64,000 nt of DNA from a virus (lineage: Duplodnaviria > Caudoviricetes). Of this stretch, positions 1 through 29,126 are shown in pieces; positions within the stretch are counted from its first letter, which is position 1, and each line of letters opens with the position of its first letter. Location: the IMG/VR virus record IMGVR_UViG_3300037421_000032, positions 451 to 64,450 of that record; one strand, 5' to 3'. The notes beneath the pieces are model-generated. The model made no database searches. It was not told the DNA's origin and saw nothing but the letters and a program-made list of their open reading frames with translations. Position numbers and translations under genes: made by a program.

Positions 1-343
1 TCCAATGCAAGCGCGGCGACCATTGCTGGGCACCAGCGGCAGCGGCTGTGGGGTTTTGCAGTATAAGACCATCGGTAGAAACTGAACCGATGGGGCCGCC
101 ATTGATCGTGGCGATTGAGCTACCAACGTTGGAGCATTGTGAGAGACCCCCACCAAGTCCAACGGAGAAAGCACCGAGAGTTGTGCAATTTGAACCCCCG
201 CTCGCGGTAACGAACCGGGTATTGGCGCAGAAAAACGTACTATCGCCGGGCGGCCTATCCGGGCAGGTAACATTCTGTGGGCTCGCTGGCGAGGCAAACA
301 GCGAGAGGGCGAGCGCCGCGAGCGCAAGAATCCGCCGCATCAT
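1..343 (-). CDS. 5' part of a large signal-peptide-bearing tail fibre/adhesin-like protein; probably continues into 64000-62036
   Basis: Hand translation MMRRILALAALALSLFASPASPQNVTCPDRPPGDSTFFC...STDGLILQNPTAAAGAQQWSPRLHW. ATGA overlap with the stop of 340..1014; open at the window edge. Confidence 0.75.
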   Translation of the reverse strand, partial: MMRRILALAALALSLFASPASPQNVTCPDRPPGDSTFFCANTRFVTASGGSNCTTLGAFSVGLGGGLSQCSNVGSSIATINGGPIGSVSTDGLILQNPTAAAAGAQQWSPRLHW

Positions 344-1014
344 AGAAACTCCAAGACCGTCAGAGAATGGTTGGCGCCGCTTGCCGCGATGGCATTGAAC
401 GCGCAGTTGACGCGGACGCGGCCCTTCGCTGGAATGCGCAATTCCTGGCCCGGCAAAATGACGATGCTGCCAGCGCCGATGACGGCGGCGAGATTCGACG
501 GACTGACCGCGATAAGCACCGTATCGGGATTGTGCAAGAGAATGCCGCGACGGACGATGTTCTGCCCGATGATCTGCGCCGACGCGGTTCCGAGCGTCGA
601 GATTTGCGTACCAAGGGGCGACGTGATCTGCACATCGACATTCATGTCGGCGAGCGGCGCGGGCTTGGCTGAGCTTTGATCCGTGAAATTCCAGATGGTC
701 AGCGTCGCGTCGGCGTTGTTGTCCGTGACCGCGATCCATGCCGTGTTGACGTTGAAGCGTTCATCGTCGCCCTGGTCGAGCAGCATGAAGGTCGATTGCG
801 GCGCGATCTCGATGCCGCCGGAGCCGCCCGCGAGCGCCATGTTGGCCGGAGCAACGCGCTTGGCGACCGTCGCCGAGGGATTATGAAAGATCACACCATG
901 CCGCACGGCGTCGCTGGCGAGCACTTGCGATGAAACGGTCGTCAAGTTCGTGATGGCGATTGCCACCGGGCCGATGACCGGAACGTCGCCGGCAAGTCTT
1001 GCGAGCACGGTCAT
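340..1014 (-). CDS. putative virion/tail accessory protein with two tandem beta-rich repeats
   Basis: Internal duplication RHGVIFHNPS...VNTAWIA / RRGILLHNPD...VNCAFNA; directly follows the tail fibre stop. Confidence 0.6.
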   Translation of the reverse strand: MTVLARLAGDVPVIGPVAIAITNLTTVSSQVLASDAVRHGVIFHNPSATVAKRVAPANMALAGGSGGIEIAPQSTFMLLDQGDDERFNVNTAWIAVTDNNADATLTIWNFTDQSSAKPAPLADMNVDVQITSPLGTQISTLGTASAQIIGQNIVRRGILLHNPDTVLIAVSPSNLAAVIGAGSIVILPGQELRIPAKGRVRVNCAFNAIAASGANHSLTVLEFL

Positions 1015-2820
1015 CTAAAGATTGTCCTCCCAACCGAGCACGGAAGCATTTTCGACGTTGATCGTGGCCGCGCCGCTCCCGCCGACGTAGACATTCGTAC
1101 TTTCCAAAACCATGTCGCAACTCATGCTGACTGATTGAGTTACGGCGCTCGCCGACGCCGTGGCGAAGGCGTTGGAACACGGGGGGAACGGTGACGTTCC
1201 CGCGGCGGTGGCGTAAGTGTTCGATGGTGCTACCGCCGAGAACCGCGTGGTATTGCTCGCCGATGTAATAGAGACTTGCAGCACGACCTTGACCCTACCG
1301 GCGGTCGGCGGCACGAAAGAAGCAACCGCGACCGCTTGCCATGGCGCGCCAAACGAACTCGCCAAGCTCGGCAATGCTACCGCACTTGTCAGATATTGCG
1401 CGCTGCGCCCACGAATGCGAATGCGCCGCTGTGCGTTGTTGGCAGTCGCGTAGATCGCCCCGACCCGCTTCTTGAAACTGTAGCCTGACGGCATGGTTGG
1501 CGCCGTCGCCGAGAGCGAAGCCAGCCCAGCCGTGGTCGTCCCGTTCGAGATGACGAACAGGTTGTACCAGGCATTGCCCATGCTGCCCGTATCAAGGCCG
1601 TTGGCTCCATTAGAGAGCATGGCGATCGTGACGGCGACCGAGGTTGCGCGCACACCGCGGCCACTCGTATCGACCATGACGACTTCATCTGCTGAAATAT
1701 CCCAGGAGTTGTCAGGATTCCCGGCGTTGTTGTTGATAGCGAGATTGACGAAGCCTGAGAGCGCGAGCGGAACTGCGCCCGAGACGCCGCCGCCGATGTA
1801 CCAGCTACCTGAACTTGCGGCGTCCGTCGTGATCCAGGCCCAGGTACCGACCGGGATGGTCGCGTTAGTGCCGGAGGAATTTTGTTGCGCCTTGATCGTA
1901 TCAGCGGCATTTGGAATGATTGTGACCACGCCGCCGCCAACCACATGAACCCAAAAGCCAAAGCCGTTGAATAGCGTATTTGCCCGCGGCAGGCTGAAAT
2001 TGATCGGACCAGTAGCGATATAAGTGGCGTTGTGGTTTGCCCCGGAGATCGACTGATTGATAGAAACCGCAGTTGTTCCTCCGTTGACGCGGGCATTGCC
2101 GGCGCCGTCGTCCTGCAAACCGACGCCGAAGCCCTCGACCGCGAGCGCGCCGAGGCCGAAGGCGGTACGGCCGGCGGCAAGCGACGCGGCGCCGACCACG
2201 GGCGCCATGGCGGACGATATGGTTCCGGTTGCCGGCGTAACGCCCGCGATTACGTTCCCCGAGCCGTCGAATAGAAGGCCGGTATTTGCCCGCTGTGCGG
2301 CCGGCGGCAAGGTCAGGTTGACCGTGGACGGGTCGGATATGGGCGCCGAGATAACCCGGTTCTGCGCCTCGGCGACCTGCTGCAACTGCATCTCGATCGT
2401 GTCGAGTGCCTGTTCGGTTGCGTTCGGGAGATTCGCCCCTTGATTGGCGAAGACCGTCGTTTGCGTGAGCGGCAGGTTGCGATAGATCGTGAGCGTCGTT
2501 CCCGAGGCTATCGGCGTGCCCGAGGGGTTGTAGGTGACGGAGCCGCCGATGCCCCAGAGCTGGCCGGCGGGCGCGGCGTTCAAGGTCAATTGGTACTGAG
2601 TCACCCCAGGCCCGCGCACGAGCGTCGTCTGATTCCCCGAGGCGTCCGTGTAGAGGACGATGATATCGGCGGCGTTGACGCCGATGAATCCGAAGCCGAA
2701 GACGGTTTGGCTTCCGGTCCCGGCAACAATGACCTTGTTGGCCGATGAAGTAATGGTGGCGTTCGCGCAGGGCGCGAACGCGAAGGCAAAAGCGAGGAAG
2801 GCGAAGATCACCCGTCGCAT
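1015..2820 (-). CDS. tail fibre protein (T7 gp17-like N-terminal adaptor) with an N-terminal signal peptide
   Basis: TITSSANKVIVAGTGSQTVFGFGF...TLTIYRNLPLTQTT...EQALDTIEMQLQQ resembles podovirus fibre N-termini. C-terminal NGANGLDTG...WYNLFVI...PTMPSGY module. Preceded by MRRVIFAFLAFAFAFAPCANA. Confidence 0.85.
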   Translation of the reverse strand: MRRVIFAFLAFAFAFAPCANATITSSANKVIVAGTGSQTVFGFGFIGVNAADIIVLYTDASGNQTTLVRGPGVTQYQLTLNAAPAGQLWGIGGSVTYNPSGTPIASGTTLTIYRNLPLTQTTVFANQGANLPNATEQALDTIEMQLQQVAEAQNRVISAPISDPSTVNLTLPPAAQRANTGLLFDGSGNVIAGVTPATGTISSAMAPVVGAASLAAGRTAFGLGALAVEGFGVGLQDDGAGNARVNGGTTAVSINQSISGANHNATYIATGPINFSLPRANTLFNGFGFWVHVVGGGVVTIIPNAADTIKAQQNSSGTNATIPVGTWAWITTDAASSGSWYIGGGVSGAVPLALSGFVNLAINNNAGNPDNSWDISADEVVMVDTSGRGVRATSVAVTIAMLSNGANGLDTGSMGNAWYNLFVISNGTTTAGLASLSATAPTMPSGYSFKKRVGAIYATANNAQRRIRIRGRSAQYLTSAVALPSLASSFGAPWQAVAVASFVPPTAGRVKVVLQVSITSASNTTRFSAVAPSNTYATAAGTSPFPPCSNAFATASASAVTQSVSMSCDMVLESTNVYVGGSGAATINVENASVLGWEDNL

Positions 2821-2872
2821 GGTTTGCCCTTGTAGCAGATTCGGACGCTCACAACGCAACGGCTAACGGGCT

Positions 2873-14853: not shown

Positions 14854-15467
14854 TACGCCGCCCTCGGCAAGAGATCGCGCTCGCGCATGGCGCGAAGTAG
14901 TTTCAGGCAAGCCTTTGCGTCCGTGACGCAATTATGCGCGTCCGCCAGTTCTTCTTTCAAGATGATCTGGCATGCCTCGGTCAAGCGCGGAAACTTGTAC
15001 CGATCCGGTTTGCTCGGGTGAGGAAGTTTGCATTCGTTGACCAGCGACCGCATCGTGCAGATACCGCCGCGCACCGATCGCGCAGTTGCCCAGAAACCAA
15101 AATCTTCCACATGCGCCCCTATTGCTCGCCGCAATTCCCCACGCATGATCTTGGCGTCGAACTCGATATTGTGTGCCGCGAGGATTCGCCCTTGTTGGAC
15201 GGCCAGCGCCAAGAGCGAGAGAGGCCAGAGGATGCTATGGCCCTCGGCGTTCAATCGTTCCGTCGAGAGGCCGTTGATTCGCTGCGCCTGTTCCGGCATT
15301 TCCCACCCGTCCGGTTTCACCAGCGCGGAGAAAGTAAATTCCACATCGAGGTCGTCAGTACAGAAGATCATGCACCAGCTCGCAAGCCGCGGCTGGCCTT
15401 CGGCGTCCGCTGGCCGCTGCCAGTCGGGGAGTCCGGTCGTCTCAGTATCGAGCACCAAATAGGGCAT
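14853..15467 (-). CDS. DEDDh 3'-5' exonuclease (DnaQ-like)
   Basis: VLDTETTG (ExoI), AHNIEFD (ExoII), AHNCVTDA (ExoIII). Confidence 0.9.
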   Translation of the reverse strand: MPYLVLDTETTGLPDWQRPADAEGQPRLASWCMIFCTDDLDVEFTFSALVKPDGWEMPEQAQRINGLSTERLNAEGHSILWPLSLLALAVQQGRILAAHNIEFDAKIMRGELRRAIGAHVEDFGFWATARSVRGGICTMRSLVNECKLPHPSKPDRYKFPRLTEACQIILKEELADAHNCVTDAKACLKLLRAMRERDLLPRAA

Positions 15468-18433
15468 CAGTGGTCATCCGGCATGTCGCCAATATCTACA
15501 TCGGGCACGAGCGCGAGCAGTTCGAGCGGAAGGCAGTATGATTGCTGTACCGCGATCATTCCCGGCGAAGCCTGCTTGTCCGGCGTCTGGAAGTCCGATT
15601 CGATCACGTAGTACCGATCGCCGGTAAACAGCGGTTCGGCATTGCCCGCTGTTATCAGGTTCGACCTCTCGGCGATTTCTGTCAATCGCCCGTAGGGCGA
15701 TTGACCCCATGGAATTTCGCCCTGGTTCGGTTGCACGGCCGCGATCGGCTGATCCTGCCCGACCGCGACGCCGCGGCTATTGGCAAGCCTGACGGTCACG
15801 CCGGGAATCCGCTTGCGCTTGCCTTGGATCATGGCGCCAGGGATTTCCGCGTGCAGCGATTGCGCCTGGGCGATGAAGGGAAGGCCGATCGTGACCTGGC
15901 TTGCCGGCGCCGGCAACGCGATCGACCCATTGACCACGGTCGCGTTCGGGGCGACCGATCCGTCCGCCAATATCGAAATCTGCATTCCCTCAAGGTGATC
16001 GAGGCCAAACACGGTCGAGACCGGCGTCGTGATGCTCCAATTACCGGCCGTAGCCGGGACCGGCGTATTCGTCGGGTCGTCCTTGATGACGGTTGCGATC
16101 GGGACGCTCAGTTGCCCTTGGACCTGGGTCGGCGACACGAAGGCCGTGACCGCGGCGATGCCGCCGCCCATGCGCACGACCTGCCCGACGACGCCGGTAT
16201 TCACGCCATCGAACACGCCCGCCGAGGCCGTGAATGTGACCGGGTTGTCGAGATTGAGCGCAATCTGACCGCCCGCGCCGGTCGAGTCGGTAATCACGAG
16301 CTGCGGCGAGGTATAGCCCTTGCCTTCCGTGAGGATGGCCGGCGCCCCGGTAATCACGCCTCCAGCAACCGGGATAGGGCCGACCATGGCGCCCGAGCCC
16401 GTGCCGCCGAGGTCGATCACGGCGCCAGCCGGCGCTGTGTAGTTCGATCCCCCCTGGATCACGATCGGGTTTGTGATCCCGCCGAGCAGGGTTGCCGTCG
16501 AGGCGTTGAGCGTCGCATTCGGCGCCGGCTGCGGCAGGTTCAAGCCGCAATCGACGCACCAGCATTGCTCGACGTTCGCCCAGATGCGGTTGTCCATCCG
16601 CTCTACGTAATACATCCACTTGTTCGGCCCACGGATGAACCGCTGCACCACGACATAGATCGCATCGACCGGAGGCTCGGACGCGGTTGCGACCGAAACA
16701 AAAAGCCCATTCGTATCATGCCGCGTCCATCCGCTTAGCTCTTGCTCTTTCAGGAAGGTCAATGAAAGCATCTGCCCGTCGTCGCGCACCGCCCAAATGA
16801 CCTTGTTGGGCTCGCGCGCCCAGGCCCATTGCAGCAATGTCCGACCGGAAAACAGGTGCGACGAAAGAATCGTAACGTCGGTTCCCGCGTAGATGTTGTA
16901 GAACAGATTATATTGCAGGTCGCGCACGATCGAGCCGAGCGCCTGACCGTAGAGGATATCGTAATTGATCTTGATCGGCTGGAGGAACGGGCTTGAGCCA
17001 TTCGACTCTTGCTGGGCCGCGCTTTGCTGCGCGGGAGTTATCGGCGAGCCCGCGCCCGCCGTTCCTGACAATTGCCACGCATCCTCGCCCGTGAGCGCTA
17101 CTAAACCGCCCGGCATGGGCGTGAGCCACTGGATTCCGTTGACTTGCAGCGACCAGGGCGTCGTCGTGATGGCATCGGAATCGATCGGCGGGTCGGCCGA
17201 ATCGAAATTGGTGAACGATCCGGGCTGCGAAAGAAAGAGCGTATCGGGCTCGTTCAACGTGTCCGCATACGTCCGCCGTTGCTGGAAGTAGGAAACCACC
17301 CCTGGATAATTCCCGGTTCCAGGGAACGGATTATTATGCAGCGGCGGCGTGACCGCAAAATCAGGGATTATGTTTGTGTCCTGCCAGACCGTCGCGTTGC
17401 CGAGCGTCGTTCCGACGAAGCCGAATAATTGTCCGGTCTGGGCGCCATTCGTGAATGATGGTGTCGCCTTATAGATATTGAACTGCCCGATCGTCTGCCC
17501 CGGATTGAGCGCGGGCGGCGTCCAATTGACCGTGATCGTTCCGAACGTGATCGAGATATCGACGGAATTGATGCCCGTGCCGATGTTCGAGGCGATGCTT
17601 TCATCGCCGGTCGCGTCGTCGATCGCCGTCACCACGTAGGAATAGGCGCACGGATTCGTCCCCGTCGTGACCGATGGAGTTGCCGTGACGCCGGTCGGCG
17701 CCCCGATCGATGACGCAAACGTCGTCGGCGTGAGCGTCCAATGGTTCGCGGTTAGCCTAGTCAAATCCTGCGGCGGATAGTCGACGTGCGTTTGCTGATT
17801 GACGCAGCAAAGCGACATGACATCGGCGGACTGAGTGAATTTTAGATAGGGAAGATCGACCGCCGCATAGGGCGTCGCGAGCGTATAGACGCGCCCCGCC
17901 GTCCCGCCCGAGGTGTAAGCCCCATAGCCGAGCGAATTGATTGGGTTGCCGAAGACATCGTTGAGCGTGAACGTGTTTCCCGCGACACTCGACACGATGA
18001 AGGTGCGGCCGTTGAGCTGCACCATGCCGCCGATGGCGGCCAGAAAGACGTAATCGCCCACAACGAAGTTGTGGCCGACTGCCGTCAGAACAGCCGGATT
18101 TGCTTGCGTCGCCGCCGAGATCGCAAACGGCACCTCCAGCACGTAGCCGCCAGTGGCGATGAATCGAACATATTTTTCCCCGAACTCAAGAATGTACGAC
18201 TGGAAAATATTGAACTTGAACCTGATGAGCCGCGGCGGCGCCGCGCTCCCCGGCTGCTTCGATGCCCCGACGAAGGCCGTTCCGCCGCGCGAGGCAAGGC
18301 CGCCTTTGTAGGAGACGTAGCAATTTCTGGCTGTGCTAGCCCCGGAGTGCCACTTAGACAGGTCGAACCGTCCGTATAAAGACGGCGAAATTTCTCCCGA
18401 TGAGAATGAGGATTTGGCAAAGGGGACGGTCAT
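15467..18433 (-). CDS. tail tubular protein B / nozzle
   Basis: SFSSGEISPSLYGRFDL N-terminus, QSADVM, FQQRR, W.REPNKVIWAVRDDG, GWTRHDTNG. Confidence 0.9.
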   Translation of the reverse strand: MTVPFAKSSFSSGEISPSLYGRFDLSKWHSGASTARNCYVSYKGGLASRGGTAFVGASKQPGSAAPPRLIRFKFNIFQSYILEFGEKYVRFIATGGYVLEVPFAISAATQANPAVLTAVGHNFVVGDYVFLAAIGGMVQLNGRTFIVSSVAGNTFTLNDVFGNPINSLGYGAYTSGGTAGRVYTLATPYAAVDLPYLKFTQSADVMSLCCVNQQTHVDYPPQDLTRLTANHWTLTPTTFASSIGAPTGVTATPSVTTGTNPCAYSYVVTAIDDATGDESIASNIGTGINSVDISITFGTITVNWTPPALNPGQTIGQFNIYKATPSFTNGAQTGQLFGFVGTTLGNATVWQDTNIIPDFAVTPPLHNNPFPGTGNYPGVVSYFQQRRTYADTLNEPDTLFLSQPGSFTNFDSADPPIDSDAITTTPWSLQVNGIQWLTPMPGGLVALTGEDAWQLSGTAGAGSPITPAQQSAAQQESNGSSPFLQPIKINYDILYGQALGSIVRDLQYNLFYNIYAGTDVTILSSHLFSGRTLLQWAWAREPNKVIWAVRDDGQMLSLTFLKEQELSGWTRHDTNGLFVSVATASEPPVDAIYVVVQRFIRGPNKWMYYVERMDNRIWANVEQCWCVDCGLNLPQPAPNATLNASTATLLGGITNPIVIQGGSNYTAPAGAVIDLGGTGSGAMVGPIPVAGGVITGAPAILTEGKGYTSPQLVITDSTGAGGQIALNLDNPVTFTASAGVFDGVNTGVVGQVVRMGGGIAAVTAFVSPTQVQGQLSVPIATVIKDDPTNTPVPATAGNWSITTPVSTVFGLDHLEGMQISILADGSVAPNATVVNGSIALPAPASQVTIGLPFIAQAQSLHAEIPGAMIQGKRKRIPGVTVRLANSRGVAVGQDQPIAAVQPNQGEIPWGQSPYGRLTEIAERSNLITAGNAEPLFTGDRYYVIESDFQTPDKQASPGMIAVQQSYCLPLELLALVPDVDIGDMPDDH

Positions 18434-18445
18434 GCGATGACCGTC

Positions 18446-19240
18446 TTAAATGAATCCGCCGCCCGGAAGTCCCAATGGATCCCAGGAATACCACGCCTGC
18501 GGCTCTAGGATTCTTCCCCATCCGGTATCGCCGCGCACGCGCATCCAGTCGGGAAGATGATCTATATCGGTTACGCCTTCGTTGCCGTCCGATATGCGCG
18601 CCTGCGTGACGATCGAGGACGCGACTTGGATTTGCTGATTCAAGAGCGCCTTGTCGGCCTTGATCGGATTGGCGAGCCATGCTCCGAGCGTGGCGGCGGC
18701 GGCCAGCAGGAAATGTGGGTCCCACAAGTCGGGATTATCGATCCGGGCCGTGTAGACCAACTGCGCAAATTCCATATTGGTTACGAGCACCTTGATCGGG
18801 TTTCCGTTCTGGTCGTTGTCGACCATGACGACAAATTTCTCGCCCGTGGCCGGCAACCATGGCGGCGTGAAGCCGAAGCCGCCGGCAAGCACCGGAAACC
18901 CCGCGCCAGCGGCCATCGGCGGATTTGGAAGAATGAACCGTGCTTTCAAACAATCCGGCGGCAATTGATATTCGTACTGCCAGTAGACCGGCGGAATCGG
19001 CAAGGTCGTCCCATTCGGATTCTCCGGCGTTCCCTGCGCGGCCTTGAGCACGGTCAAACCGACTTGCCGGCGCGCACAGTTCCAATGCGCGGCCCGGAAC
19101 AGCGCGTCCATTTTCGGTTGATAGTGCCGGGCGCAGAGGTCGGCGTTCGGCGGCGGCAGCGGCGGGCTAAGCGAGGTGATCGAGAACCGCGCCGAAATGT
19201 TGTCGAGCGCCATGTTGCAAACGTCGACGGGCGAGGTCAT
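18446..19240 (-). CDS. tail tubular protein A / adaptor
   Basis: VDVCNMAL...HWNCARR...WQYEYQLPPDCLK...WDPHF motifs. Confidence 0.88.
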   Translation of the reverse strand: MTSPVDVCNMALDNISARFSITSLSPPLPPPNADLCARHYQPKMDALFRAAHWNCARRQVGLTVLKAAQGTPENPNGTTLPIPPVYWQYEYQLPPDCLKARFILPNPPMAAGAGFPVLAGGFGFTPPWLPATGEKFVVMVDNDQNGNPIKVLVTNMEFAQLVYTARIDNPDLWDPHFLLAAAATLGAWLANPIKADKALLNQQIQVASSIVTQARISDGNEGVTDIDHLPDWMRVRGDTGWGRILEPQAWYSWDPLGLPGGGFI

Positions 19241-21651: not shown

Positions 21652-22956
21652 TTAGAGTTCCGCGCTGGCCTGAATCTTTCCGGTTCCGTTGTTCGAGTAG
21701 AGGAAGGATGCAACGCCGGCCGCCGGCACTGTGCCGGCGGTACAGTTCACAAGCGCGGTCCCTGTGCTCGCAACCGTGCTGGTGACGGTCGTCGCTGCCG
21801 CGAGCGTGGTGCAGTTGCCAAGCGTCGCTTGCGTGGTCGAGGTCGGCGTTGCAAAGCCGTTGGCAAAGGAAAGCGTCGGCGCGGCCCGCATGGTGACGGG
21901 GAATTGAACGAGGCAGTTCGTGTGTGTCGTATCGACTGCCGCGCACGGAGCTACCGGGGCGATCGCCGCGCTTTCGGTAAGCTGGTAGTAATAGCGTTGC
22001 TGCCGCGAGGTTTCATCCTCGATGCCACGCCGGGCAAAAGCCTTGGCGCGGGCGTCATTGGCGGGCAAGACCACTCCGGCGCTTCCGGCCACCGTGGTCA
22101 GGGTACTATTGCGGGTAAGCTGGATGCCCGATAACGCGATGTAATCATTGGTGCCGGCAGTTCCGACCGGCGTGAAACACAACGCCACGGCGATTTCGGC
22201 CGTGCCGGCTGGTATCGGCGCCGCCGCCGTATAGTGCGTGTTGGTCGCGGAGATCGTGACGTTGAGGGTGACGTTTGCCTGCGTCGTCCAACCCGAGCCG
22301 CCGCCGCCGCCGCCATTGAGTCCGAACGCAGCCTTCGCCGCGCCCTCATCCACGACGCTCCCGGTAATGAAATTCACCGTCATCACGGAATTGGCGGCCG
22401 AGAAATTTGCGCCCGCCGTGGCGTGGAAATCGACTTCGGCGGTCAGGCCGGAATAGGCGAAGGATTCCGTCCCCTCGACCACCTGAATCATGCAGACCGG
22501 GAGGACGCCGGTCTGCCCGGAGGTCCGGGCCATCTTGAAAGCGGCCTGGAACGTCTTGGAGGGAGGCAGATCCGCCGCGGTCGTGTCCCGGCTGACCGTC
22601 ATCGCCGTTGCGGTTCCCGACCAATAGGCCCAGCGGTCGGGGCCGCCGTAGGTCAGGGTCGTGGTGACGGATGAGCCGGTCGTCGCCCGCTGGAACAGGT
22701 TTGTGGTGGCATCCCCGCCGATCAGGCTGTTGTCGTAGTTTCCCCCAGGGAGCGATTGGGTATAGCCGGAAAGCGTTGAGCTGGTCGCGTAACAGGAAAC
22801 CGTGCAGGGGAAGTTGAGCGGGATCTGTTCGGTCCCCGCGAGGTTCGTGATCTGTTGCATTCCCTGGCCGATGGCCCGCTGCGCGGGGCCGAAGGCAAAA
22901 ACTGCGGCGATAGCCGCCCCCAGAAGCGCCAATCCGATGCGGAAGGTGGACTTCAT
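21652..22956 (-). CDS. signal-peptide-bearing tail-fibre-like (carbohydrate-binding) protein
   Basis: MKSTFRIGLALLGAAIAAVFAFG leader. NSLIGGD..NLFQR...PDRW and E...QRYY...FPVTMRAAPT are fibre motifs. Confidence 0.75.
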   Translation of the reverse strand: MKSTFRIGLALLGAAIAAVFAFGPAQRAIGQGMQQITNLAGTEQIPLNFPCTVSCYATSSTLSGYTQSLPGGNYDNSLIGGDATTNLFQRATTGSSVTTTLTYGGPDRWAYWSGTATAMTVSRDTTAADLPPSKTFQAAFKMARTSGQTGVLPVCMIQVVEGTESFAYSGLTAEVDFHATAGANFSAANSVMTVNFITGSVVDEGAAKAAFGLNGGGGGGSGWTTQANVTLNVTISATNTHYTAAAPIPAGTAEIAVALCFTPVGTAGTNDYIALSGIQLTRNSTLTTVAGSAGVVLPANDARAKAFARRGIEDETSRQQRYYYQLTESAAIAPVAPCAAVDTTHTNCLVQFPVTMRAAPTLSFANGFATPTSTTQATLGNCTTLAAATTVTSTVASTGTALVNCTAGTVPAAGVASFLYSNNGTGKIQASAEL

Positions 22957-23173
22957 CGTCTGATCCGCCGCCTTGCGGCGCCTCCGGTTCGAGGTTAATT
23001 CCAAGTCACTAGACCTTCGCCTGATTCCCGTCAACGGACGGGTTGAGGTTTCCCCTTGTTTTCGGCGCATCCTACGGAATGCGCCGCAACGCAACGCCAT
23101 CCTCGGCAAGCTGGGCTACGACCTCCCGCAGCTTGGCGTTCTCGGCTTCGAGTTCGGCGGGCGTCATGTGGCC

Positions 23174-23863
23174 TCAGAAAGTGAATATGGTGATGGCATT
23201 ATTGGTCCATGCCGTGCTGCCAGCAATCCCCACCGCAAGCCAGTATTGCGTGTTAGGCGTTCCGGTAAAGGTTCCCGCGATCGAGGTCAAAGTGAAACCA
23301 GTGCCGCAAGCCGTTGCGTGCATGACGGGGGTGAGTATCGTCGCGCCTCCGGGAATCGGATTGAGGGAAAACATTGGCTCGCTGCCAATGGTGCCCGGAG
23401 AGCCGTTGACACTGTACGTTCCCGCCAATCCTGGGGAACCCGTCAACTGCCCAGTGATCGTCACGGGAGCAAACCCCGCGCCGTTCAAAATTTGCCCTGT
23501 TGCAATCGACCAGGGTGGCGCTGGCGGCACGAAACTTCCTGCGGTCAGGACGTTGCTGGCAATTGACCCCATAAAATTCGCACCAGTAATAGAGGAAGCC
23601 CCAGCGCCGATATAAAGCTGCGCCGACATCTGGGTTGTGGGGCTGCTGCCACAAAGAACCTGCCCGGTTGCAAGGGCGTAAACCACTCCATAGGGGCCGG
23701 TCGTGAAAGTGCAAGACAGCAGCACGCCGAGAATTGTGCCGGGCGTGCCGTTCACCGTGGTATCGAAACCATCGCAGGTTATTGCCTGCGGATTGCCGGC
23801 GCGCGCCGCTGTCGGGCATAAAACGGCGATGGCGACAGAGAGTGCAAGAAGCAGTCGCCTCAT
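23174..23863 (-). CDS. secreted beta-rich protein with 4 Cys in the mature part; paralog of 23860..24639
   Basis: MRRLLLALSVAIAVLCPTAARA|GNP leader. Confidence 0.7.
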   Translation of the reverse strand: MRRLLLALSVAIAVLCPTAARAGNPQAITCDGFDTTVNGTPGTILGVLLSCTFTTGPYGVVYALATGQVLCGSSPTTQMSAQLYIGAGASSITGANFMGSIASNVLTAGSFVPPAPPWSIATGQILNGAGFAPVTITGQLTGSPGLAGTYSVNGSPGTIGSEPMFSLNPIPGGATILTPVMHATACGTGFTLTSIAGTFTGTPNTQYWLAVGIAGSTAWTNNAITIFTF

Positions 23864-24639
23864 TGCACGATCCCGTATGATGGGGGAAGTTTTGGCGGGG
23901 CGACTATAGAGATTTGCCCGTTGCTCCAACTAGCCAGTTGGGGATCCCCGGTCACTCGTTCTGCCGTAAGCGTGAGGCCGACCCATATAATCTCGTTCGG
24001 AGGCTGCGATGCTATTGGCATGATCCCAGCAATCGTTACCGTTTCCGTTGATCCGTTTTGACACTTCAAATCCTGTAGTATGCGTGCGGATATAGGGCCG
24101 CCACCTGGGAAAGCCCCCTGGTAGGGCACCTCAGTAAGCGCCCACATCACTTCGCTCCCAACCGAAACCGTATTATCGGACACCGTGTAATGGCCGGTCC
24201 CGCCAGTAGGACCGTCCGTTTGCCCTGTGACCGACAGCGTGGAGCCGTTGAACCCGGTCGGGATGCCCGCTCCTGATTGGGCATCGTAAAGTATCTGCCC
24301 TGTCCCGATCTTGAATGCCGGTGGTGTTATCATGCTTGGCACGGTCAGGACGCCGCCGGAAATCGAGCCGTTGAACTGAGCCCCGAGGGCAGCAGGCGGC
24401 CCATTGGCGCTGGCAATCAAAATCAACGAGGCTGTGTTGGTGGCGGCACAACTGACCGTTCCGGTCGCTGACACGTAAATGGTGCCGTAGAATCCGTTGT
24501 TTAGCGTACAATTGGAAAGCACCACGTTGCCGCTGAATGAAAATGAGGTCGTGTCGTAGGTCGGGCAGGTTACGGCGGACTGCGCCCAGGCGGGTGCACA
24601 CCAGAGCAGCAACGCGAGTGCGACCAGCCAGCGGCGCAT
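23860..24639 (-). CDS. secreted beta-rich protein with 4 Cys in the mature part
   Basis: MRRWLVALALLLWCAPAWA|QS leader. Confidence 0.75.
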   Translation of the reverse strand: MRRWLVALALLLWCAPAWAQSAVTCPTYDTTSFSFSGNVVLSNCTLNNGFYGTIYVSATGTVSCAATNTASLILIASANGPPAALGAQFNGSISGGVLTVPSMITPPAFKIGTGQILYDAQSGAGIPTGFNGSTLSVTGQTDGPTGGTGHYTVSDNTVSVGSEVMWALTEVPYQGAFPGGGPISARILQDLKCQNGSTETVTIAGIMPIASQPPNEIIWVGLTLTAERVTGDPQLASWSNGQISIVAPPKLPPSYGIVQ

Positions 24640-24641
24640 TC

Positions 24642-26537
24642 TCAGTCCCCGATTATGGAGCTGTCGAGCAAGATCATCCCCGGAGAAATCAAAGACACAT
24701 ACCCAACTTGCCCGGCGGTCATTCCAGAACTGGTGGCGGCAATTTGAATGCTGTTAAGCCCGTACTTGTTGACGCTAAGTGCTGTAGCTGCAAACGTAGC
24801 CGCAGCGGTCGTGAACGTATAATCCGCGACGTTTTCAAAATAGACATTGGGCGGCGGACAAAGCGGCGCAGTTTTTGCAGCGGTATCCCACACATTGCAG
24901 CGCAAGGTTACAGGCAGCGGCCACGTCGACAGAAAGTCAGTCGTGGTGTCGGAAAAACCCATCGTGGTTTCGATTGCGCCGTTGTTGCCGGGGTTGATGG
25001 CGGTTTCCAATCCCGTTCCGATCAATTGAGCAAACCGCGCATTGCGCAGCATGTCGGACACGGCGTCCGGGATTTCCAGCGGCCCTGGGTACAGTTGAAT
25101 GCACGGAGGCGCAGCACCGGCGCAGGTCGCTCCCGGCGTCTGCTTCAATTCAAATCCGTCGATGGTGAAATATTGACCGTTCGTCATGGCTCCGGTGTGA
25201 AACTCGACTTCCATGTCACCATGAATGCCGGTCGGAACCCACGTATAGGCATAGTTGCATTGGCTCGGCGACGCGACGTTCGTGCAGGCAGTCAGGGTGA
25301 CCGGCGCTATATCCGTTGTCGCGTTCGTCCAGGCGTTAAGGCAAACTCCGACCGTCAAGGGACAGGCATTTTTGCTGCTAAAGCTCGGTGCCGAAGTAAA
25401 ATTAGTTGAGAAATTTATATTCATTTGAAACGTAATGGCCTGGATCAGCATGTTAGACGAGACGCAAACTGAGGTCGAACCCGCATAGAGCGCACAGTTG
25501 ATCCGTGAGGCATCAACATAGTCTATCGGGAAGCGAATAATCAAATCGGTCAGAGTGCCGCCGGCCGTACATTGAATTGCCAGCGGGGCAAAGTTGCCCC
25601 CTGGGCCGTTAGTTCCGACCCCGGTACAACTGACGCTGCTAGTGCCTGCGGTCCCAACCGGAATGGCGTAGATGCCCTCTGCCGACCAGCCGCCCGCCGA
25701 TCGCATCGTCTCGCTGGCAACCAATTGCGAAGTATCGACTTGATAAGTACCGGCGCCTCCGGCCGAGCCGGTAAGTTGCCGGACGATCTTAGTCCCTCGT
25801 GCGACGGTGCTGAATACGATGACATCACCGCTTCCCACGCCCGGCCCGACAAGCGTGCATTGACTGGCGTTGGTGTTAAACCCCACACCGCCGTTCAGGG
25901 ATGGGCACGCGCTAGTATTGCCGGTCAGCGTGACCGTGTTGCTCGTAGTAGACGCTACGGTGTAATTTCCGGCGATGGCGCGAGGGTTGGTCAGGTCCGT
26001 AGCATACATCCCGGCTGCGATGCCTGTTGTGGACGCGAAATGAAGCACATTGTTGCCAACAGCGGTCGTTCCATTGGTCACGCAGTTAGTTTGAGACGGA
26101 CAATTAACGGTGTCCGTCACCCGCTGGTCTTGTTGGATCGTCCCCGTCACGCTGCTCGCAGTCAGCGTTGTGCCGGCCGATCCGCTACCGTTGTCAATCG
26201 TTGCGGTGAAGCTCGCGATGCCGTTGACATAAGGGTTGGAGTTAGGCACGTCTTTCGTGAGCCATTTGTAATGTGCCCAACTCGTCATTGAACCGTTGCG
26301 CAGCGCGTTCGTCGTGCCGGTCGTTTGCAACAGGACGTTCTGGTTGACGTATGCGCCCTGGTCGGGATTGAAAAATGGAATGTTGACTGAAAGACCGCTG
26401 CCGAGCGTGAAGTTGCCCGCGAAGCCGTTTATAAAGTTGACGGCGGCCTGCGCCAGTTGCGGCGACCAGCCTGCGGCCATGACTTGCCCGACCAAGGCGC
26501 CAAGAAACAGAATGCCGAGTAGTCGAAGTTTTGTCAT
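24642..26537 (-). CDS. large secreted Cys-rich fibre/adhesin-like protein
   Basis: MTKLRLLGILFLGALVGQVMA leader; NALRNGSMTSW fibre-type domain start; many Cys. Confidence 0.7.
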   Translation of the reverse strand: MTKLRLLGILFLGALVGQVMAAGWSPQLAQAAVNFINGFAGNFTLGSGLSVNIPFFNPDQGAYVNQNVLLQTTGTTNALRNGSMTSWAHYKWLTKDVPNSNPYVNGIASFTATIDNGSGSAGTTLTASSVTGTIQQDQRVTDTVNCPSQTNCVTNGTTAVGNNVLHFASTTGIAAGMYATDLTNPRAIAGNYTVASTTSNTVTLTGNTSACPSLNGGVGFNTNASQCTLVGPGVGSGDVIVFSTVARGTKIVRQLTGSAGGAGTYQVDTSQLVASETMRSAGGWSAEGIYAIPVGTAGTSSVSCTGVGTNGPGGNFAPLAIQCTAGGTLTDLIIRFPIDYVDASRINCALYAGSTSVCVSSNMLIQAITFQMNINFSTNFTSAPSFSSKNACPLTVGVCLNAWTNATTDIAPVTLTACTNVASPSQCNYAYTWVPTGIHGDMEVEFHTGAMTNGQYFTIDGFELKQTPGATCAGAAPPCIQLYPGPLEIPDAVSDMLRNARFAQLIGTGLETAINPGNNGAIETTMGFSDTTTDFLSTWPLPVTLRCNVWDTAAKTAPLCPPPNVYFENVADYTFTTAAATFAATALSVNKYGLNSIQIAATSSGMTAGQVGYVSLISPGMILLDSSIIGD

Positions 26538-26541
26538 CTAA

Positions 26542-27621
26542 CTATCCAGTGGGTGTGACGACGATTATGCCATTTGCTCCTGACCCGCCCGCATTGGTAG
26601 CCCCGGTGAACCCACCGCCACCGCCGCCTGCTCCATAGTTGCCGCCGTTCCCACCTGGGGCGTCAGTGACAGAGGTCGGACCGGCGCCGCCGCCACCGCC
26701 ACCGCCGGAACCGTGGGAGGCATCAAAATCAACCCCGGCACCACCAGCGCACGCTGGCCCCATATTGCTGACACCAGAGTTAGCAGCACCACCGCCGCCC
26801 GATCCATGTGATCCAGCAGTGCAAACTGAAACGTTTGACACACCACCCAACCCGCCTGCCGTACTATCTTGAGCCGTGCCGCCGTTACCGCCACCATTCG
26901 CAACAGAATCCGCTCCGTTACCACCGCCGCCATTGCCCCCACCGCCGCCGCCGCCGTTTTGAACACCCGCACCGGAAGCCCCGCCATGCCCGCCAGCTCC
27001 GTTCGGACCGGCCGCACCGCCGCCGCCGCCCGCTCCATTTGCTACTTGCGTCTGCGCGCCGCCGGCACCACCAGCATTCTTGGTAGAGCCAACCGCGCCC
27101 GTGGTAGACCCGCCCGCCGCCGTCGATGTTGATCCCACGCCCCCAGCGCCGCCGTTCGATCCGACGACAACTGCCGTGCCTCCGATTGTCGCGCAGTTGG
27201 TTGTGGCGTTGCACAGCCAAGTATTGCCGCCCGCAACACCGGGGCTCCCGTTCGCGCCGCCGGTTCCGATGTTGATCCCGATAGTGCCGGACAAAGAAAG
27301 TCCGGTGGCTTTGGAATATCCGCCCCCGCCGCCTCCAGCACCGATTACGGTTCCGGTCGCATTCGCGCCGCCACCACCCCCGGCGATGGTTTCGGCAGTA
27401 AAGACCGAGCAGTTTGGAAAATCGACCGTGAGGTTGATCGTAGTCGTGGCAGTGTTAGTGTAAAATGCTGCTGTGCCCGCGGAAGCACAACTGCCCCCAC
27501 CACTCGGCGCCGTGATGCTGCAAAACCCCGCCGCGCAGCCGTTGAACTGCGCCCATGAGGCGAGCGGCAGGCCAACGCAAATGCCGGCAAGCGCCGCGAG
27601 AACAACAACCCACCGTTTCAT
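26542..27621 (-). CDS. secreted glycine-rich tail-fibre-like protein
   Basis: MKRWVVVLAALAGICVGLPLASWA|QF leader; GGGGGG...GANGIIVV glycine-rich domain. Confidence 0.75.
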   Translation of the reverse strand: MKRWVVVLAALAGICVGLPLASWAQFNGCAAGFCSITAPSGGGSCASAGTAAFYTNTATTTINLTVDFPNCSVFTAETIAGGGGGANATGTVIGAGGGGGGYSKATGLSLSGTIGINIGTGGANGSPGVAGGNTWLCNATTNCATIGGTAVVVGSNGGAGGVGSTSTAAGGSTTGAVGSTKNAGGAGGAQTQVANGAGGGGGAAGPNGAGGHGGASGAGVQNGGGGGGGNGGGGNGADSVANGGGNGGTAQDSTAGGLGGVSNVSVCTAGSHGSGGGGAANSGVSNMGPACAGGAGVDFDASHGSGGGGGGGAGPTSVTDAPGGNGGNYGAGGGGGGFTGATNAGGSGANGIIVVTPTG

Positions 27622-28091
27622 GTGAGGTCATTCCCGATCAGATAGAGATCACACGTCGCGGCCGTGCCCTGCCCGGTCGTCAGCGAGAGATACACCGTGT
27701 TGACCGTATAGCGTGTAGTTGCGATGTTCGCCGCCAAGGTCAGCCCGAGCACGATCGTCGCCCCGGTCAGCGCGGTATAAATCTGCGCCGCTGCAACGAG
27801 TGCCGTGCCGCCCTTGCTGACCGCCGGATAGACACCGCCCGCTGCGAGCGTCAGCGAAGCCGAGCAATTGGTGACGATGATCGAAGTCGGCACCCATGCG
27901 GTCACACCGGCCGGAATGGTGCAGGCTTGATCCGTGGTGACATTAAAGTTGGCGGCGCGGATCGAGCATAGGACGCGCGTGGCGCCTGCCGCCGTGTTAT
28001 TGATCGTGACAGCGCCGCCGCTGCCAAACCCGGCTATAGCCTGCGAACATGCCAGCCAAGCCGCACAAAAGAATGCAAGAACTCGGCGCAT
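27618..28091 (-). CDS. secreted decoration-like protein
   Basis: MRRVLAFFCAAWLACSQAIA|GF leader; 4 Cys in the mature part. Confidence 0.7.
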   Translation of the reverse strand: MRRVLAFFCAAWLACSQAIAGFGSGGAVTINNTAAGATRVLCSIRAANFNVTTDQACTIPAGVTAWVPTSIIVTNCSASLTLAAGGVYPAVSKGGTALVAAAQIYTALTGATIVLGLTLAANIATTRYTVNTVYLSLTTGQGTAATCDLYLIGNDLT

Positions 28092-28095
28092 GGCA

Positions 28096-28953
28096 TCACC
28101 AATATGTGCAGGAGAACTTGTGCCCGGTCGTCGCGGCAATGACCGACAGGGCCGTATTCATGCCGAAGCCGAGGGGCGTCGTGAAACTCGATAGGCCGGC
28201 AAATGTCGTCGCTGTCGGAGCGGCCAGAGGGTAGGACGCGGCGGTTGAAGCAGCGGCCGTGGTGGTGAAAGAAATCCATAACGGCTCACCGGAGCCCGCC
28301 GACGTGTCAATGTTGGCGATGGTGAATCCATGGATCGTCGCCGTTGCCGCGATGGCATTCTGCGCCGTGCCGCCTGATGTGATCGTACTGGAACAATTGG
28401 TCGGGGTGACATTGACATTGCCGGTGACGGTTCCGATCGCGGCAGTGCCGGCCGCTAGACCGACCGTTCCCCCGCTTGAGCCCATAGCACCCGTTGGCAG
28501 CGGCAACGATGCCGCGCTTATCGGAATCACCGTTCCAGAGGCAATACCTTGGACCGTTACCACCTCGGCCGATGCCGTTCCGGCCGTGCCCACACCCGCG
28601 CCAGCAACGGTCGAACCCGTGCCCGAGTTTTTCGAGACGGCGACGGGCGCCGCAGATGCGGCGACGGCCTGCCCGTTGGGATTAAGCGTTCCCGATGCAA
28701 GGTTGACTGTTTGGTGTCCGCTACTATCCACCGCCGCGCATTGCGACGGCATCGTCGGATCGCATAGAAGTAGTTGCATGTAATGCACGGAGGCGACGAC
28801 GATAGACCCGAACGTCGTTCCGCTTCCTTGGGTCAACGTATAGTTGGCAAACGCCCATATTCCGCCGACCATCACGACAAGCAGAGTGCCGCGGAATATC
28901 GTTCCGAAACACCATAGCAGGGTGCGCAGCAGGAACATCGCCGTGCGTTTCAT
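28096..28953 (-). CDS. membrane-leader-bearing decoration-like protein
   Basis: Hydrophobic N-terminus ending AFA|NY; Thr/Ala/Gly-rich body; paired Cys. Confidence 0.7.
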   Translation of the reverse strand: MKRTAMFLLRTLLWCFGTIFRGTLLVVMVGGIWAFANYTLTQGSGTTFGSIVVASVHYMQLLLCDPTMPSQCAAVDSSGHQTVNLASGTLNPNGQAVAASAAPVAVSKNSGTGSTVAGAGVGTAGTASAEVVTVQGIASGTVIPISAASLPLPTGAMGSSGGTVGLAAGTAAIGTVTGNVNVTPTNCSSTITSGGTAQNAIAATATIHGFTIANIDTSAGSGEPLWISFTTTAAASTAASYPLAAPTATTFAGLSSFTTPLGFGMNTALSVIAATTGHKFSCTYW

Positions 28954-29123
28954 TGTCCTAATCCTGTGACGCAGCCGAGGGAGAGATCGAGAACACCGTT
29001 ACAGGTCGAAGGTGTGGATACCCCATGTCCCGATTGATTAGCCGGCGACATGATCCACACTTGCGCGTCCGCTCCCGCTGCCAGGGCGAGGGCCAAGAGC
29101 AGGATGAAGACGGTCACGCGCAT
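28950..29123 (-). CDS. small secreted peptide (57 aa, 2 Cys)
   Basis: Hand translation MRVTVFILLLALALAAGADA|QVWIMSPANQSGHGVSTPSTCNGVLDLSLGCVTGLGQ; stop overlaps the next ATG. Confidence 0.7.
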   Translation of the reverse strand: MRVTVFILLLALALAAGADAQVWIMSPANQSGHGVSTPSTCNGVLDLSLGCVTGLGQ

Positions 29124-29126
29124 GGG

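What the first reader, a model, noticed from the sequence alone, without database searches (positions are those of the whole stretch)
1015..2820. Podovirus tail fibre with a cleavable Sec signal peptide in front of its virion-attachment domain
Seen: the protein starts MRRVIFAFLAFAFAFAPCANA (basic n-region, hydrophobic h-region, A-N-A cleavage site). Cleavage would expose TITSSANKVIVAGTGSQTVF. Known: T7-gp17-type adaptor domains in related phages usually begin at the equivalent position (MTV/IS...), and tailed-phage fibres normally fold and attach in the cytoplasm. No in-frame Met lies at that position. Inference: the fibre is exported, processed and added to virions only after the inner membrane is breached, an assembly route I do not know to be described for tailed phages.
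Basis: partly seen in the sequence, partly recalled or inferred. Interest (0 to 1): 0.9.

Follow-up and report, generated by a model that had tools for sequence, protein, structure and literature searches.

The report
Phage tail fibre with export signal
A complete soil-phage genome encodes its only tail fibre behind a classical secretion signal, which suggests the fibre matures outside the cytoplasm where tailed-phage particles are thought to be built.

Summary
Window 1015-2820 (- strand) encodes a 601-aa podovirus tail fibre. Its anchor domain (residues 22-~150) matches virion-bound fibres and tailspikes. A 21-residue leader with textbook signal-peptide anatomy (RR / 13 hydrophobic residues / A-N-A) precedes it.

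- The junction falls exactly where leaderless homologues have Met1.
- 70 of 120 homologues carry such leaders. The leaders are only 26% identical to each other, yet -1 is Ala in 69 of 70.
- Leaders were gained or lost repeatedly.
- Leader presence goes with strictly co-occurring cysteine column pairs (candidate disulfides). None of the three main pairs occurs in the 50 leaderless proteins. The association holds in phylogenetically independent pairs (9 pairs, none opposite, median p 0.03).
- The window is a complete 64.3-kb phage genome. The leader-bearing gene is its only anchor-domain gene, as in 10 of 10 related viral records.
- At least nine more leader-bearing proteins sit in the same late region; eight of them are visibly Cys-rich.

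Export and cleavage are very likely. Attachment of the fibre to particles after export is the most coherent inference but is untested. I found no printed precedent for a tailed-phage fibre; the nearest are the cellular proteins WceF and the Bdellovibrio MAT fibres.

The parts
1015..2820 (-). Tail-fibre gene, 601 aa including the leader; stop codon at 1015-1017
   Evidence: ORF list and sequence; PHROG tail fibre/tailspike families on residues 22-160 and phrog_17105 on 440-601; 405 homologues at E<=0.001
2827..2831 (-). AAGGG Shine-Dalgarno-like motif, 6 nt upstream of the ATG
   Evidence: Read directly from the sequence
2758..2820 (-). Leader, residues 1-21: n-region M-R-R, h-region V4-A16 (13 uncharged hydrophobic residues), c-region P-C-A-N-A, with small residues at -3 and -1
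   Evidence: Sequence; modelled as helix 2-14 followed by a low-confidence linker 15-24; equivalent leaders in 70 of 120 homologues
2311..2757 (-). Virion-anchor domain plus start of the helical neck, residues 22-170 (beta-sandwich 22-117, helix 131-154)
   Evidence: PDB profile hit to Dpo31 domain D1; Foldseek best hit 8ck1_B, Carin-1 tail with fibres; model; single copy in this genome
1018..1755 (-). C-terminal beta-rich distal domain, residues 356-601, with the only two mature cysteines (C548, C568)
   Evidence: High-pLDDT block; weak fold matches to the Bd2133 fibre tip and to BC2L-C/C1q-type trimeric lectin domains; the two Cys columns co-occur in 6 of 7 alignment rows that have either
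340..1014 (-). 224-aa protein of unknown function with two repeated ~110-aa halves and no leader; its ATG directly follows the fibre's stop codon
   Evidence: homologues directly downstream of the fibre in L003, L007, L008, L011, L016, L024 and L027, whether or not the fibre has a leader; viral clusters only in the protein atlas
1..343 (-). Start of a second leader-bearing, fibre-like protein (876 aa: MMRRILALAALALSLFASPA...). Its ATG overlaps the p224 stop (ATGA). It runs off the window start and through the terminal repeat
62036..64000 (-). C-terminal 654 aa of the same 876-aa protein
   Evidence: Circularised reading; nearest atlas clusters are viral, with weak tail-fibre leads; relatives of its repeat region include Peptidase_S74-bearing fibre-like proteins, many with leaders
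21652..29600 (-). Run of eight tightly packed ORFs between capsid and tail genes, all with leader-like N-termini and 4-16 cysteines (157, 285, 157, 359, 631, 259, 229 and 434 aa)
   Evidence: Translations; no Pfam, PHROG or NCBIfam hit; 13 of 13 full-length homologues of the 631-aa protein also have leaders and 12-18 Cys
15467..19240 (-). Tail tubular A (adaptor-type, 18446-19240) and tail tubular B (nozzle-type, 15467-18433): the expected docking site of the fibre
   Evidence: phrog_394 E 8e-33; phrog_376 E 3e-152
60226..60552 (-). Candidate holin (108 aa)
   Evidence: Pfam Phage_holin_10, E 9.8e-6, 26 bits against a cutoff of 27; weak

Best explanation
The gene encodes this podophage's only tail fibre as a precursor with a genuine Sec-type signal peptide that signal peptidase I cleaves.

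Proposed route:
1. After late expression the unfolded chain is exported across the inner membrane.
2. The leader is cut after A-N-A. The new N-terminus (Thr22) matches the one leaderless relatives would have after the usual removal of Met1 before Thr (recalled rule, no call).
3. The fibre folds and trimerises in the oxidising periplasm. In most relatives disulfides stabilise it; here there is one candidate pair, C548-C568.
4. DNA-filled, fibreless particles are built in the cytoplasm.
5. The two meet only when holin lesions and lysis merge the compartments. The conserved anchor domain then docks onto the adaptor/nozzle junction of the tail.

Shown by computation: the leader's anatomy, its register, its family-wide conservation, its covariation with cysteine pairs, the single-copy status of the gene, an anchor domain as conserved as in leaderless fibres, and a complete phage genome. 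Inferred: export, cleavage, periplasmic folding, and the timing and place of attachment.
For: Leader anatomy and register. 70 of 120 homologues have leaders that are only 26% identical pairwise, against 63% for the adjacent mature domain, yet they keep Ala at -1 in 69 of 70 and a small residue at -3 in 70 of 70.

Among the 150 best representatives at 50% clustering, 42 have extensions of 15 aa or more, and 39 of these look like signal peptides.

In the 39 IMG/VR loci, 10 fibres have leaders. The leaderless ones have no hydrophobic stretch upstream before the in-frame stop, so leaderless status is not an annotation artefact.

Leader state changes 13 times on a tree of 120 proteins, at least 4 forced by well-supported branches, and 17 times on a tree of 219.

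Cysteines in the shared first 330 mature residues:
- columns 174/186: 27 and 27 proteins, both in 27;
- columns 228/277: 15 and 16, both in 15;
- columns 232/274: 21 and 22, both in 21.
All of these are leader-bearing proteins; none of the 50 leaderless proteins has them.

Two-by-two table on 219 proteins: leader with >=2 Cys 75, leader with <2 Cys 15, leaderless with >=2 Cys 18, leaderless with <2 Cys 111. Of 9 independent pairs, Cys goes the same way in 6.2 on average and the opposite way in 0, median sign-test p 0.031.

The anchor domain is as conserved with a leader as without: 0.63 against 0.59 identity, per-column entropy Spearman 0.84, and 44 columns at least 80% conserved with the same residue in both groups.

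The genome has only one anchor-domain gene. The same holds in 10 of 10 related records with leader-bearing fibres, 4 of them at least 99% complete.

The genome is complete, with 127-bp terminal repeats, and carries a podovirus structural module.

The same late region holds at least 9 further leader-bearing proteins, eight of them visibly Cys-rich. Relatives have leader-bearing RBP-like proteins next to the fibre.
Against: - No experimental or dedicated-predictor evidence of export or cleavage.
- The query itself has no Cys in the shared 330-aa region and only one candidate pair. One leaderless relative (P0008) has that same pair.
- 18 of 129 leaderless proteins have >=2 Cys and 15 of 90 leader-bearing ones have <2.
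- The neighbouring p224, conserved beside the fibre, has no leader. If it is a fibre chaperone it would be in the wrong compartment.
- Mixing at lysis dilutes components, so post-lysis attachment could be inefficient.
- No cultured phage in the INPHARED collection has a close homologue, so no virion proteome can be consulted.
- The holin call is weak and no endolysin was identified.
Confidence: 0.5

Rival explanations
1. The fibre is exported and cleaved, but the exported pool is not what arms the virion. It acts in the envelope, for example by binding or masking nascent surface glycans or receptors. That could exclude superinfection, keep progeny from sticking to debris, or serve as a surface or secreted adhesin, as cellular tailspike- and fibre-like proteins do.
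For: Printed precedents exist for exported, phage-like trimeric spikes and fibres that work outside virions. WceF has a Tat signal followed by a domain like the head-binding domain of the P22 tailspike, and sits in an exopolysaccharide operon (passages of PMC7949094). [quoted passage not shown] The distal domain gives weak fold matches to lectin-like trimers and to a MAT fibre tip. Many other exported proteins lie in the same operon.
Against: The gene sits in the canonical fibre slot of a complete phage genome. It is the only anchor-domain gene there and in 10 of 10 related records. The anchor domain is under the same constraint as in leaderless fibres. Full-length leaderless homologues with the same distal domain exist, for example P0003 at 48% identity over 97% of the length.
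Confidence: 0.2
2. Dual localisation. Export is incomplete; a cytoplasmic fraction, with the leader retained or trimmed by other means, is built into virions in the usual way, and the exported fraction has a second job.
For: This would reconcile the leader with canonical cytoplasmic assembly. The frequent switching between leader and no leader suggests that both forms can serve the same tail.
Against: A hydrophobic 21-aa leader on the anchor domain is likely to aggregate or to hinder docking. There is no alternative start to make a leaderless form. The disulfide-type Cys pairs in relatives argue that the functional fold forms in an oxidising compartment.
Confidence: 0.13
3. The route is the same but goes through the twin-arginine (Tat) pathway: the fibre folds, perhaps trimerises, in the cytoplasm and is exported folded.
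For: The query has R2-R3 followed by V-I-F. 31 of 70 leaders contain RR, 28 in an RR-x-hydrophobic-hydrophobic context. 31 of 70 have a basic residue in the last six leader positions. WceF is annotated with a Tat signal.
Against: 39 of 70 leaders lack RR. The leaders are short (median 26 aa; 21 here) and very hydrophobic (best 9-residue Kyte-Doolittle mean 2.9 here). The Cys-pair enrichment fits oxidative folding after unfolded export. NCBIfam gave no hit at E<=0.1; that this library holds a Tat-signal model is my recollection.
Confidence: 0.08
4. The leader is not an export signal. Either the start is mis-assigned, or the leader is an uncleaved hydrophobic tag with some other role.
For: No dedicated predictor or experiment was available. 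A rare ATT codon lies at residue 23.
Against: No canonical start lies between codons 5 and 67, and no purine-rich motif precedes codon 23. Seventy diverged leaders keep the n/h/c pattern and Ala at -1. The 13-residue h-region is shorter than a typical membrane-spanning helix (general knowledge, no call). The cysteine covariation would be unexplained.
Confidence: 0.06

Closest known systems
Podovirus tail fibres and tailspikes with the N-terminal anchor domain (Carin-1 Dpo31 domain D1; PHROG tail families 1640, 13893, 1171, 5662)
   Same: Homologous N-terminal beta-sandwich followed by a helical neck. [quoted passage not shown] The gene sits in a tail module with adaptor- and nozzle-type proteins.
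   Different: Those proteins start at Met1 directly with the domain. This one has a 21-aa signal-peptide-like leader in front. None of the 33 matching cultured-phage records aligns before query residue 20.
WceF of Pantoea stewartii (exported tailspike-like glycanase)
   Same: A signal peptide directly followed by a domain like a phage tailspike's particle-binding domain, in a trimeric protein (PMC7949094, passages).
   Different: WceF is chromosomal, in an exopolysaccharide operon, not in a phage. Its signal is described as Tat and its body is a beta-helix enzyme. There is no virion to attach to.
Bdellovibrio bacteriovorus MAT fibres (for example Bd2133)
   Same: [quoted passage not shown] Weak fold match of the distal part to 8ond_B.
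   Different: These are cellular predator proteins displayed on a bacterium, not encoded in a phage structural operon. Homology of the N-terminal domains was not tested.
Phage proteins with cleavable signal peptides (signal-peptide endolysins, T4 antiholin RI) and the coat proteins of filamentous phages
   Same: They show that phages use host export and signal peptidase (endolysin passages; the RI paper seen only as a reference-list title; the filamentous-phage point from the abstract listed, plus general knowledge).
   Different: Endolysins and RI are not virion parts of tailed phages. Filamentous phages assemble at the membrane and have no tail fibres.

Membership tests
Podovirus tail-fibre/tailspike N-terminal anchor domain (Dpo31 D1 type) | Sequence or profile similarity of the first ~130 mature residues to the anchor domain of a fibre seen bound to a tail | tested here: met
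   PDB profile search: Dpo31/8ck1, E 5.3e-24, profile positions 21-161 to chain residues 1-130. PHROG tail families, E 4.5e-14 to 6.8e-6. Foldseek best hit 8ck1_B, TM by target 0.58, 34% identity.
Podovirus tail-fibre/tailspike N-terminal anchor domain (Dpo31 D1 type) | Encoded in a tail module with adaptor (tubular A), nozzle (tubular B) and internal virion proteins | tested here: met
   phrog_394, phrog_376, phrog_308, phrog_418 and phrog_684 on the neighbouring genes.
Podovirus tail-fibre/tailspike N-terminal anchor domain (Dpo31 D1 type) | Beta-sandwich followed by a helical (coiled-coil) neck | tested here: met
   Model: strands 22-117, helix 131-154. This part has low to moderate pLDDT.
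Podovirus tail-fibre/tailspike N-terminal anchor domain (Dpo31 D1 type) | The domain begins at the initiator Met | tested here: not met
   A 21-aa leader precedes it. This is the variant feature.
Podovirus tail-fibre/tailspike N-terminal anchor domain (Dpo31 D1 type) | Physically part of the virion | not testable with these tools
   No cultured relative is available.
Sec-type signal peptide cleaved by signal peptidase I | Positively charged n-region | tested here: met
   R2 and R3. All 70 leaders have 1-4 Lys/Arg in their first 10 residues.
Sec-type signal peptide cleaved by signal peptidase I | Uncharged hydrophobic h-region of about 7-15 residues | tested here: met
   V4-A16; best 9-residue Kyte-Doolittle mean 2.92.
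Sec-type signal peptide cleaved by signal peptidase I | Small neutral residues at -3 and -1, and no Pro at +1 | tested here: met
   A19 and A21, with T22 at +1. In the family, -1 is Ala in 69 of 70 and -3 is A/S/V/T/G in 70 of 70.
Sec-type signal peptide cleaved by signal peptidase I | Positive call by a trained predictor, or demonstrated export and cleavage | not testable with these tools
   SignalP was not on hand and there are no experiments.
Tat signal peptide | Twin-arginine motif (S/T-R-R-x-F-L-K type) | tested here: inconclusive
   The query has RRVIF. RR occurs in 31 of 70 leaders and is absent from 39.
Tat signal peptide | A longer leader with a weakly hydrophobic h-region | tested here: not met
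   21 aa here, median 26 in the family, strongly hydrophobic. The typical Tat values are recalled, not from a call.
Lipoprotein signal peptide (signal peptidase II) | Lipobox with Cys at +1 | tested here: not met
   Cys18 is at -4, preceded by F-A-P; +1 is Thr. +1 is Thr or Val in all 70.
Exported cellular fibre/tailspike-like proteins (WceF, MAT fibres) | Signal peptide followed by a conserved N-terminal beta-rich domain and a trimeric fibre or spike | tested here: met
   the comparison rests on paper passages.
Exported cellular fibre/tailspike-like proteins (WceF, MAT fibres) | Encoded in a cellular operon, with no virion to join | tested here: not met
   Encoded in a complete phage genome with terminal repeats, in the fibre slot of the tail module.

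The most novel reading that the evidence does not exclude
A lineage of ~62-67-kb podophages of Hyphomicrobiales-type soil bacteria builds its whole host-recognition apparatus in the periplasm. That apparatus comprises the tail fibre plus a set of Cys-rich accessory proteins that resemble receptor-binding proteins. They would be exported by Sec and folded oxidatively. Cytoplasmic, fibreless particles would be armed only during holin-triggered collapse of the envelope. This would be a two-compartment assembly line not described for tailed phages.
Probability: 0.4. Interest if true: 0.9.

Novelty: new variant of a known kind. Interest (0 to 1): 0.8.

Why it matters
Tailed-phage morphogenesis is taught as a purely cytoplasmic process. 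A secretion signal on the sole tail fibre of a complete phage genome does not fit that picture. The signal has been gained or lost many times and goes together with disulfide-type cysteine pairs.

If the fibre really matures in the periplasm, three things follow:
- Receptor-binding proteins can use oxidative folding.
- Lysis timing and particle arming become coupled.
- Annotation pipelines should stop treating signal peptides on fibres as errors.

It would also give engineers a route to disulfide-stabilised fibres. The idea is directly testable in a harmless soil host.

Tried and rejected
- **Downstream start codon:** rejected. No ATG/GTG/TTG lies between codons 5 and 67, and only a rare ATT at codon 23 without a ribosome-binding motif.
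- **Lipoprotein signal:** rejected, no lipobox.
- **Second, leaderless anchor-domain gene in the same genome:** none found by tblastn, and none in 10 related records.
- **Pfam and NCBIfam on the fibre and the leader-bearing neighbours:** no Pfam hit; in NCBIfam only one far-sub-threshold chance hit on the fibre (E 0.046, 13 bits against a cutoff of 155).
- **My first crude signal-peptide script:** it missed most of the leader-bearing block that direct reading showed. My GC3-based gene picker also dropped several of those genes. I therefore give no genome-wide count of signal peptides.
- **The 631-aa leader protein searched in five related records:** no match.
- **The scan of representative bacterial genomes:** only 2 loci. 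One is a leaderless fibre in a Rhodomicrobium MAG; the other is a weak partial match.
- **IQ-TREE quick search:** it did not finish, so all trees are FastTree and branch support should be read with care.
- **Literature:** searches found no paper that describes a signal peptide on a tailed-phage fibre. The passages read concern lysis proteins only. The Bradyrhizobium phage paper PMC11599138 has no mention of signal peptides or tail fibres in its main text. PMC12656738 I saw only in a listing. Supplements were closed, so any virion proteomics tables were not seen.
- **Not used:** Complex prediction, read laying, the look-up of sequencing runs, and the second structure job.
Full report
**What is there.** The window is bases 451-64450 of a 64,450-base IMG/VR virus record. 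The record has 127-base direct terminal repeats and a CheckV completeness of 100. It is therefore a complete phage genome of about 64.3 kb with about 62% G+C.

On the - strand it carries a podovirus-type late module:
- small and large terminase, portal, protease/scaffold and major head protein;
- tail tubular A (18446-19240) and tail tubular B (15467-18433);
- internal virion proteins, a 988-aa transglycosylase-bearing protein, a 1616-aa protein and a 913-aa virion protein;
- then the gene in question (2820->1015), a 224-aa protein and an 876-aa protein.

**The observation.** The gene starts at ATG 2820, with AAGGG 6 nt upstream. It encodes 601 aa beginning MRRVIFAFLAFAFAFAPCANA|TITSSANK. After ATG1 and GTG4 the next canonical in-frame start is codon 68, inside the anchor domain. 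Codon 21 is Ala.

The leader has two arginines, then 13 uncharged hydrophobic residues, then P-C-A-N-A with small residues at -3 and -1 and Thr at +1. It has no lipobox.

**The fibre.** PHROG tail-fibre and tailspike profiles align their positions 2-14 to residues 22-34. A profile of the family finds the solved Carin-1 tailspike Dpo31 at E 5.3e-24, with chain residue 1 (Met) on the -1 position of the proposed cleavage site.

An AlphaFold2 model (mean pLDDT 75) shows:
- the leader as a helix (residues 2-14);
- a low-confidence linker (15-24);
- a beta-sandwich (22-117);
- a long helix (131-154);
- a confident beta-rich distal domain (356-600).

Its best structural match is chain B of 8ck1, the Carin-1 tail with its fibres.

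**The leader is a family trait.** Of the 120 best homologues (405 at E<=0.001), 70 carry a leader of 20-58 aa. Position -1 is Ala in 69 of 70, -3 is A/S/V/T/G in 70 of 70, and +1 is Thr in 67 of 70. Forty-six of the other 50 begin M-T at exactly that column.

The leaders are only 26% identical to one another, against 63% for the adjacent domain. That pattern is what selection for physical properties rather than sequence would give.

Among the 150 best cluster representatives of a search of 1.84 billion proteins, 42 have extensions of 15 aa or more. By eye 39 of these look like signal peptides and 3 do not.

In 39 IMG/VR loci, 10 fibres have leaders. The leaderless ones show no hydrophobic stretch between the start and the upstream in-frame stop.

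Named sources are Bradyrhizobium, Pseudolabrys and a Xanthobacteraceae MAG. Some related records are classed as proviruses.

**Independent evidence for an oxidising compartment.** In the shared first 330 mature residues, cysteines occur in strictly co-occurring column pairs: 27/27, 15/16 and 21/22. All are in leader-bearing proteins and none in the 50 leaderless ones.

On 219 proteins the table is:

| | >=2 Cys | <2 Cys |
|---|---|---|
| Leader | 75 | 15 |
| No leader | 18 | 111 |

The leader state changes 17 times on the FastTree tree. In 9 phylogenetically independent pairs the cysteine state follows the leader in 6.2 on average and never opposes it (median p 0.031). The smaller set of 120 gave 4 pairs and could not reach significance.

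The query itself is a weak case. Apart from Cys18 in the leader it has only C548 and C568, in the distal domain. That pair co-occurs in 6 of 7 rows, but one of those rows is leaderless.

**Is it still the virion's fibre?** Several results say yes.
- The anchor domain is as conserved with a leader (0.63 mean identity) as without (0.59). The two groups have highly correlated per-column conservation (Spearman 0.84), and 44 columns are at least 80% conserved with the same residue in both.
- This genome has no second anchor-domain gene. Neither do any of the 10 related records with leader-bearing fibres, four of which are at least 99% complete.
- All 10 leader-bearing loci show internal-virion or tail genes upstream of the fibre. 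For L007, which starts near a contig end, this shows only on the whole circular record.
- At least 12 leaderless relatives place the fibre between the capsid gene and tail tubular A instead.

**Context I did not expect.** Between the capsid gene and tail tubular A lie eight tightly packed ORFs (21652-29600). All have leader-like N-termini and 4-16 cysteines, and none has a family hit. Thirteen of 13 full-length homologues of the 631-aa member also have leaders and 12-18 cysteines.

The 876-aa protein that starts at 343 and wraps through the terminal repeat also has a leader, followed by a Cys-rich N-terminus. Its relatives and atlas neighbours are viral and fibre-like; these are leads only.

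Related genomes have a large leader-bearing protein downstream of the fibre whose mature N-terminus is conserved (QGCGPxNPNC...). One of these genomes, L010, has a leaderless fibre. Export of proteins that resemble receptor-binding proteins therefore looks like a habit of this phage lineage.

**Mechanism.** The most coherent reading has five steps:
1. Sec export of the fibre.
2. Cleavage after A-N-A. The mature N-terminus (Thr) is the same as in leaderless relatives after Met removal; that methionine aminopeptidase removes Met before Thr is recalled knowledge.
3. Periplasmic folding.
4. Docking onto fibreless particles when holin lesions or lysis join the compartments.
5. A particle armed only at that moment.

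That fibres and tailspikes can be added to finished particles in vitro (T4, P22) is also recalled knowledge, not a call. A weak holin candidate lies at 60226-60552.

I put 0.5 on this whole chain. Within it I put about 0.85 on a real, cleaved signal peptide, and about 0.8 on the protein being the virion fibre.

Rivals:
- an envelope or secreted role without virion incorporation, 0.2 (WceF and MAT fibres are precedents);
- dual localisation, 0.13;
- Tat instead of Sec, 0.08 (RR is present in only 31 of 70 leaders);
- not an export signal at all, 0.06.

**Novelty.** Five full-text searches found no description of a signal peptide on a tailed-phage fibre. None of the 33 cultured-phage records that match the protein aligns before residue 20, and none is closer than 60% identity. 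A signal peptide fused to a tailspike-like particle-binding domain is in print only for cellular proteins. I therefore class this as a new variant of a known kind. The assembly route it implies would be categorically new if shown.

**Limits.**
- No signal-peptide predictor was available and there is no experiment.
- The trees are FastTree only.
- The cysteine argument is strongest for relatives, not for this protein.
- Paper supplements were closed, so virion proteomics tables could not be checked.

Noticed in passing
window 21652-29600 (- strand): Eight consecutive, tightly packed ORFs between the major capsid gene and tail tubular A. All have signal-peptide-like N-termini and 4-16 cysteines. 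One (26542-27621) is very glycine-rich. None has a Pfam, PHROG or NCBIfam match. Homologues of the 631-aa member all carry leaders too.
   Followed up: partly
window 1-343 and 62036-64000 (- strand), joined through the 127-bp terminal repeat: An 876-aa leader-bearing, fibre-like protein with a Cys-rich mature N-terminus (QNVTCP...GDS...C) and an internal duplication. Contig 63595-63686 resembles window 1-92 at 68% identity. The region has a lower G+C (about 58%) than the rest of the genome.
   Followed up: partly
L004, L006, L008, L010 (downstream of the fibre); L003: Related phages carry a large leader-bearing protein after the fibre. Its mature N-terminus is conserved: QGCGPxNPNC(I/L/V)VPTAP, or QNYTCP in L003. 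L010 has this protein although its fibre is leaderless.
   Followed up: partly
window 340-1014 (- strand): A 224-aa protein made of two similar ~110-aa halves, placed directly after the fibre's stop codon. Relatives have either this double form or a single-domain form of about 113-122 aa in the same place. Function unknown; viral clusters only.
   Followed up: partly
window 58065-58916 (- strand): A 283-aa protein with a classical leader (MKRTIITGILLALAAGAAGAA|DLPALITKAP). From memory it resembles outer-membrane proteins of Rhizobiales. It has no family hit and may be a moron gene.
   Followed up: no
window 60226-61421 (- strand): A class-3 lipase domain protein (Pfam Lipase_3, E 2.8e-6, above the cutoff) lies directly upstream of a weak holin-like ORF. 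No endolysin was recognised anywhere in the genome.
   Followed up: no
L012, L015, L017-L022, L025-L030, L034 compared with the window: Two gene orders exist among relatives: capsid -> fibre -> tubular A -> tubular B, or tubular B -> internal proteins -> fibre. All 10 leader-bearing fibres found in IMG/VR are of the second order.
   Followed up: partly
window 15467-18433 (- strand): Tail tubular B (988 aa) is longer than its PHROG profile (712 positions). It has a sub-threshold match to the ubiquitin-E1 FCCH domain at residues 118-180, which is probably an inserted small beta domain.
   Followed up: no
window 5948-10798 (- strand): A 1616-aa internal-virion-type protein. Residues 1075-1436 match PHROG families labelled portal or unknown function (phrog_21, phrog_10691). 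This is unusually large for a genome of this size.
   Followed up: no
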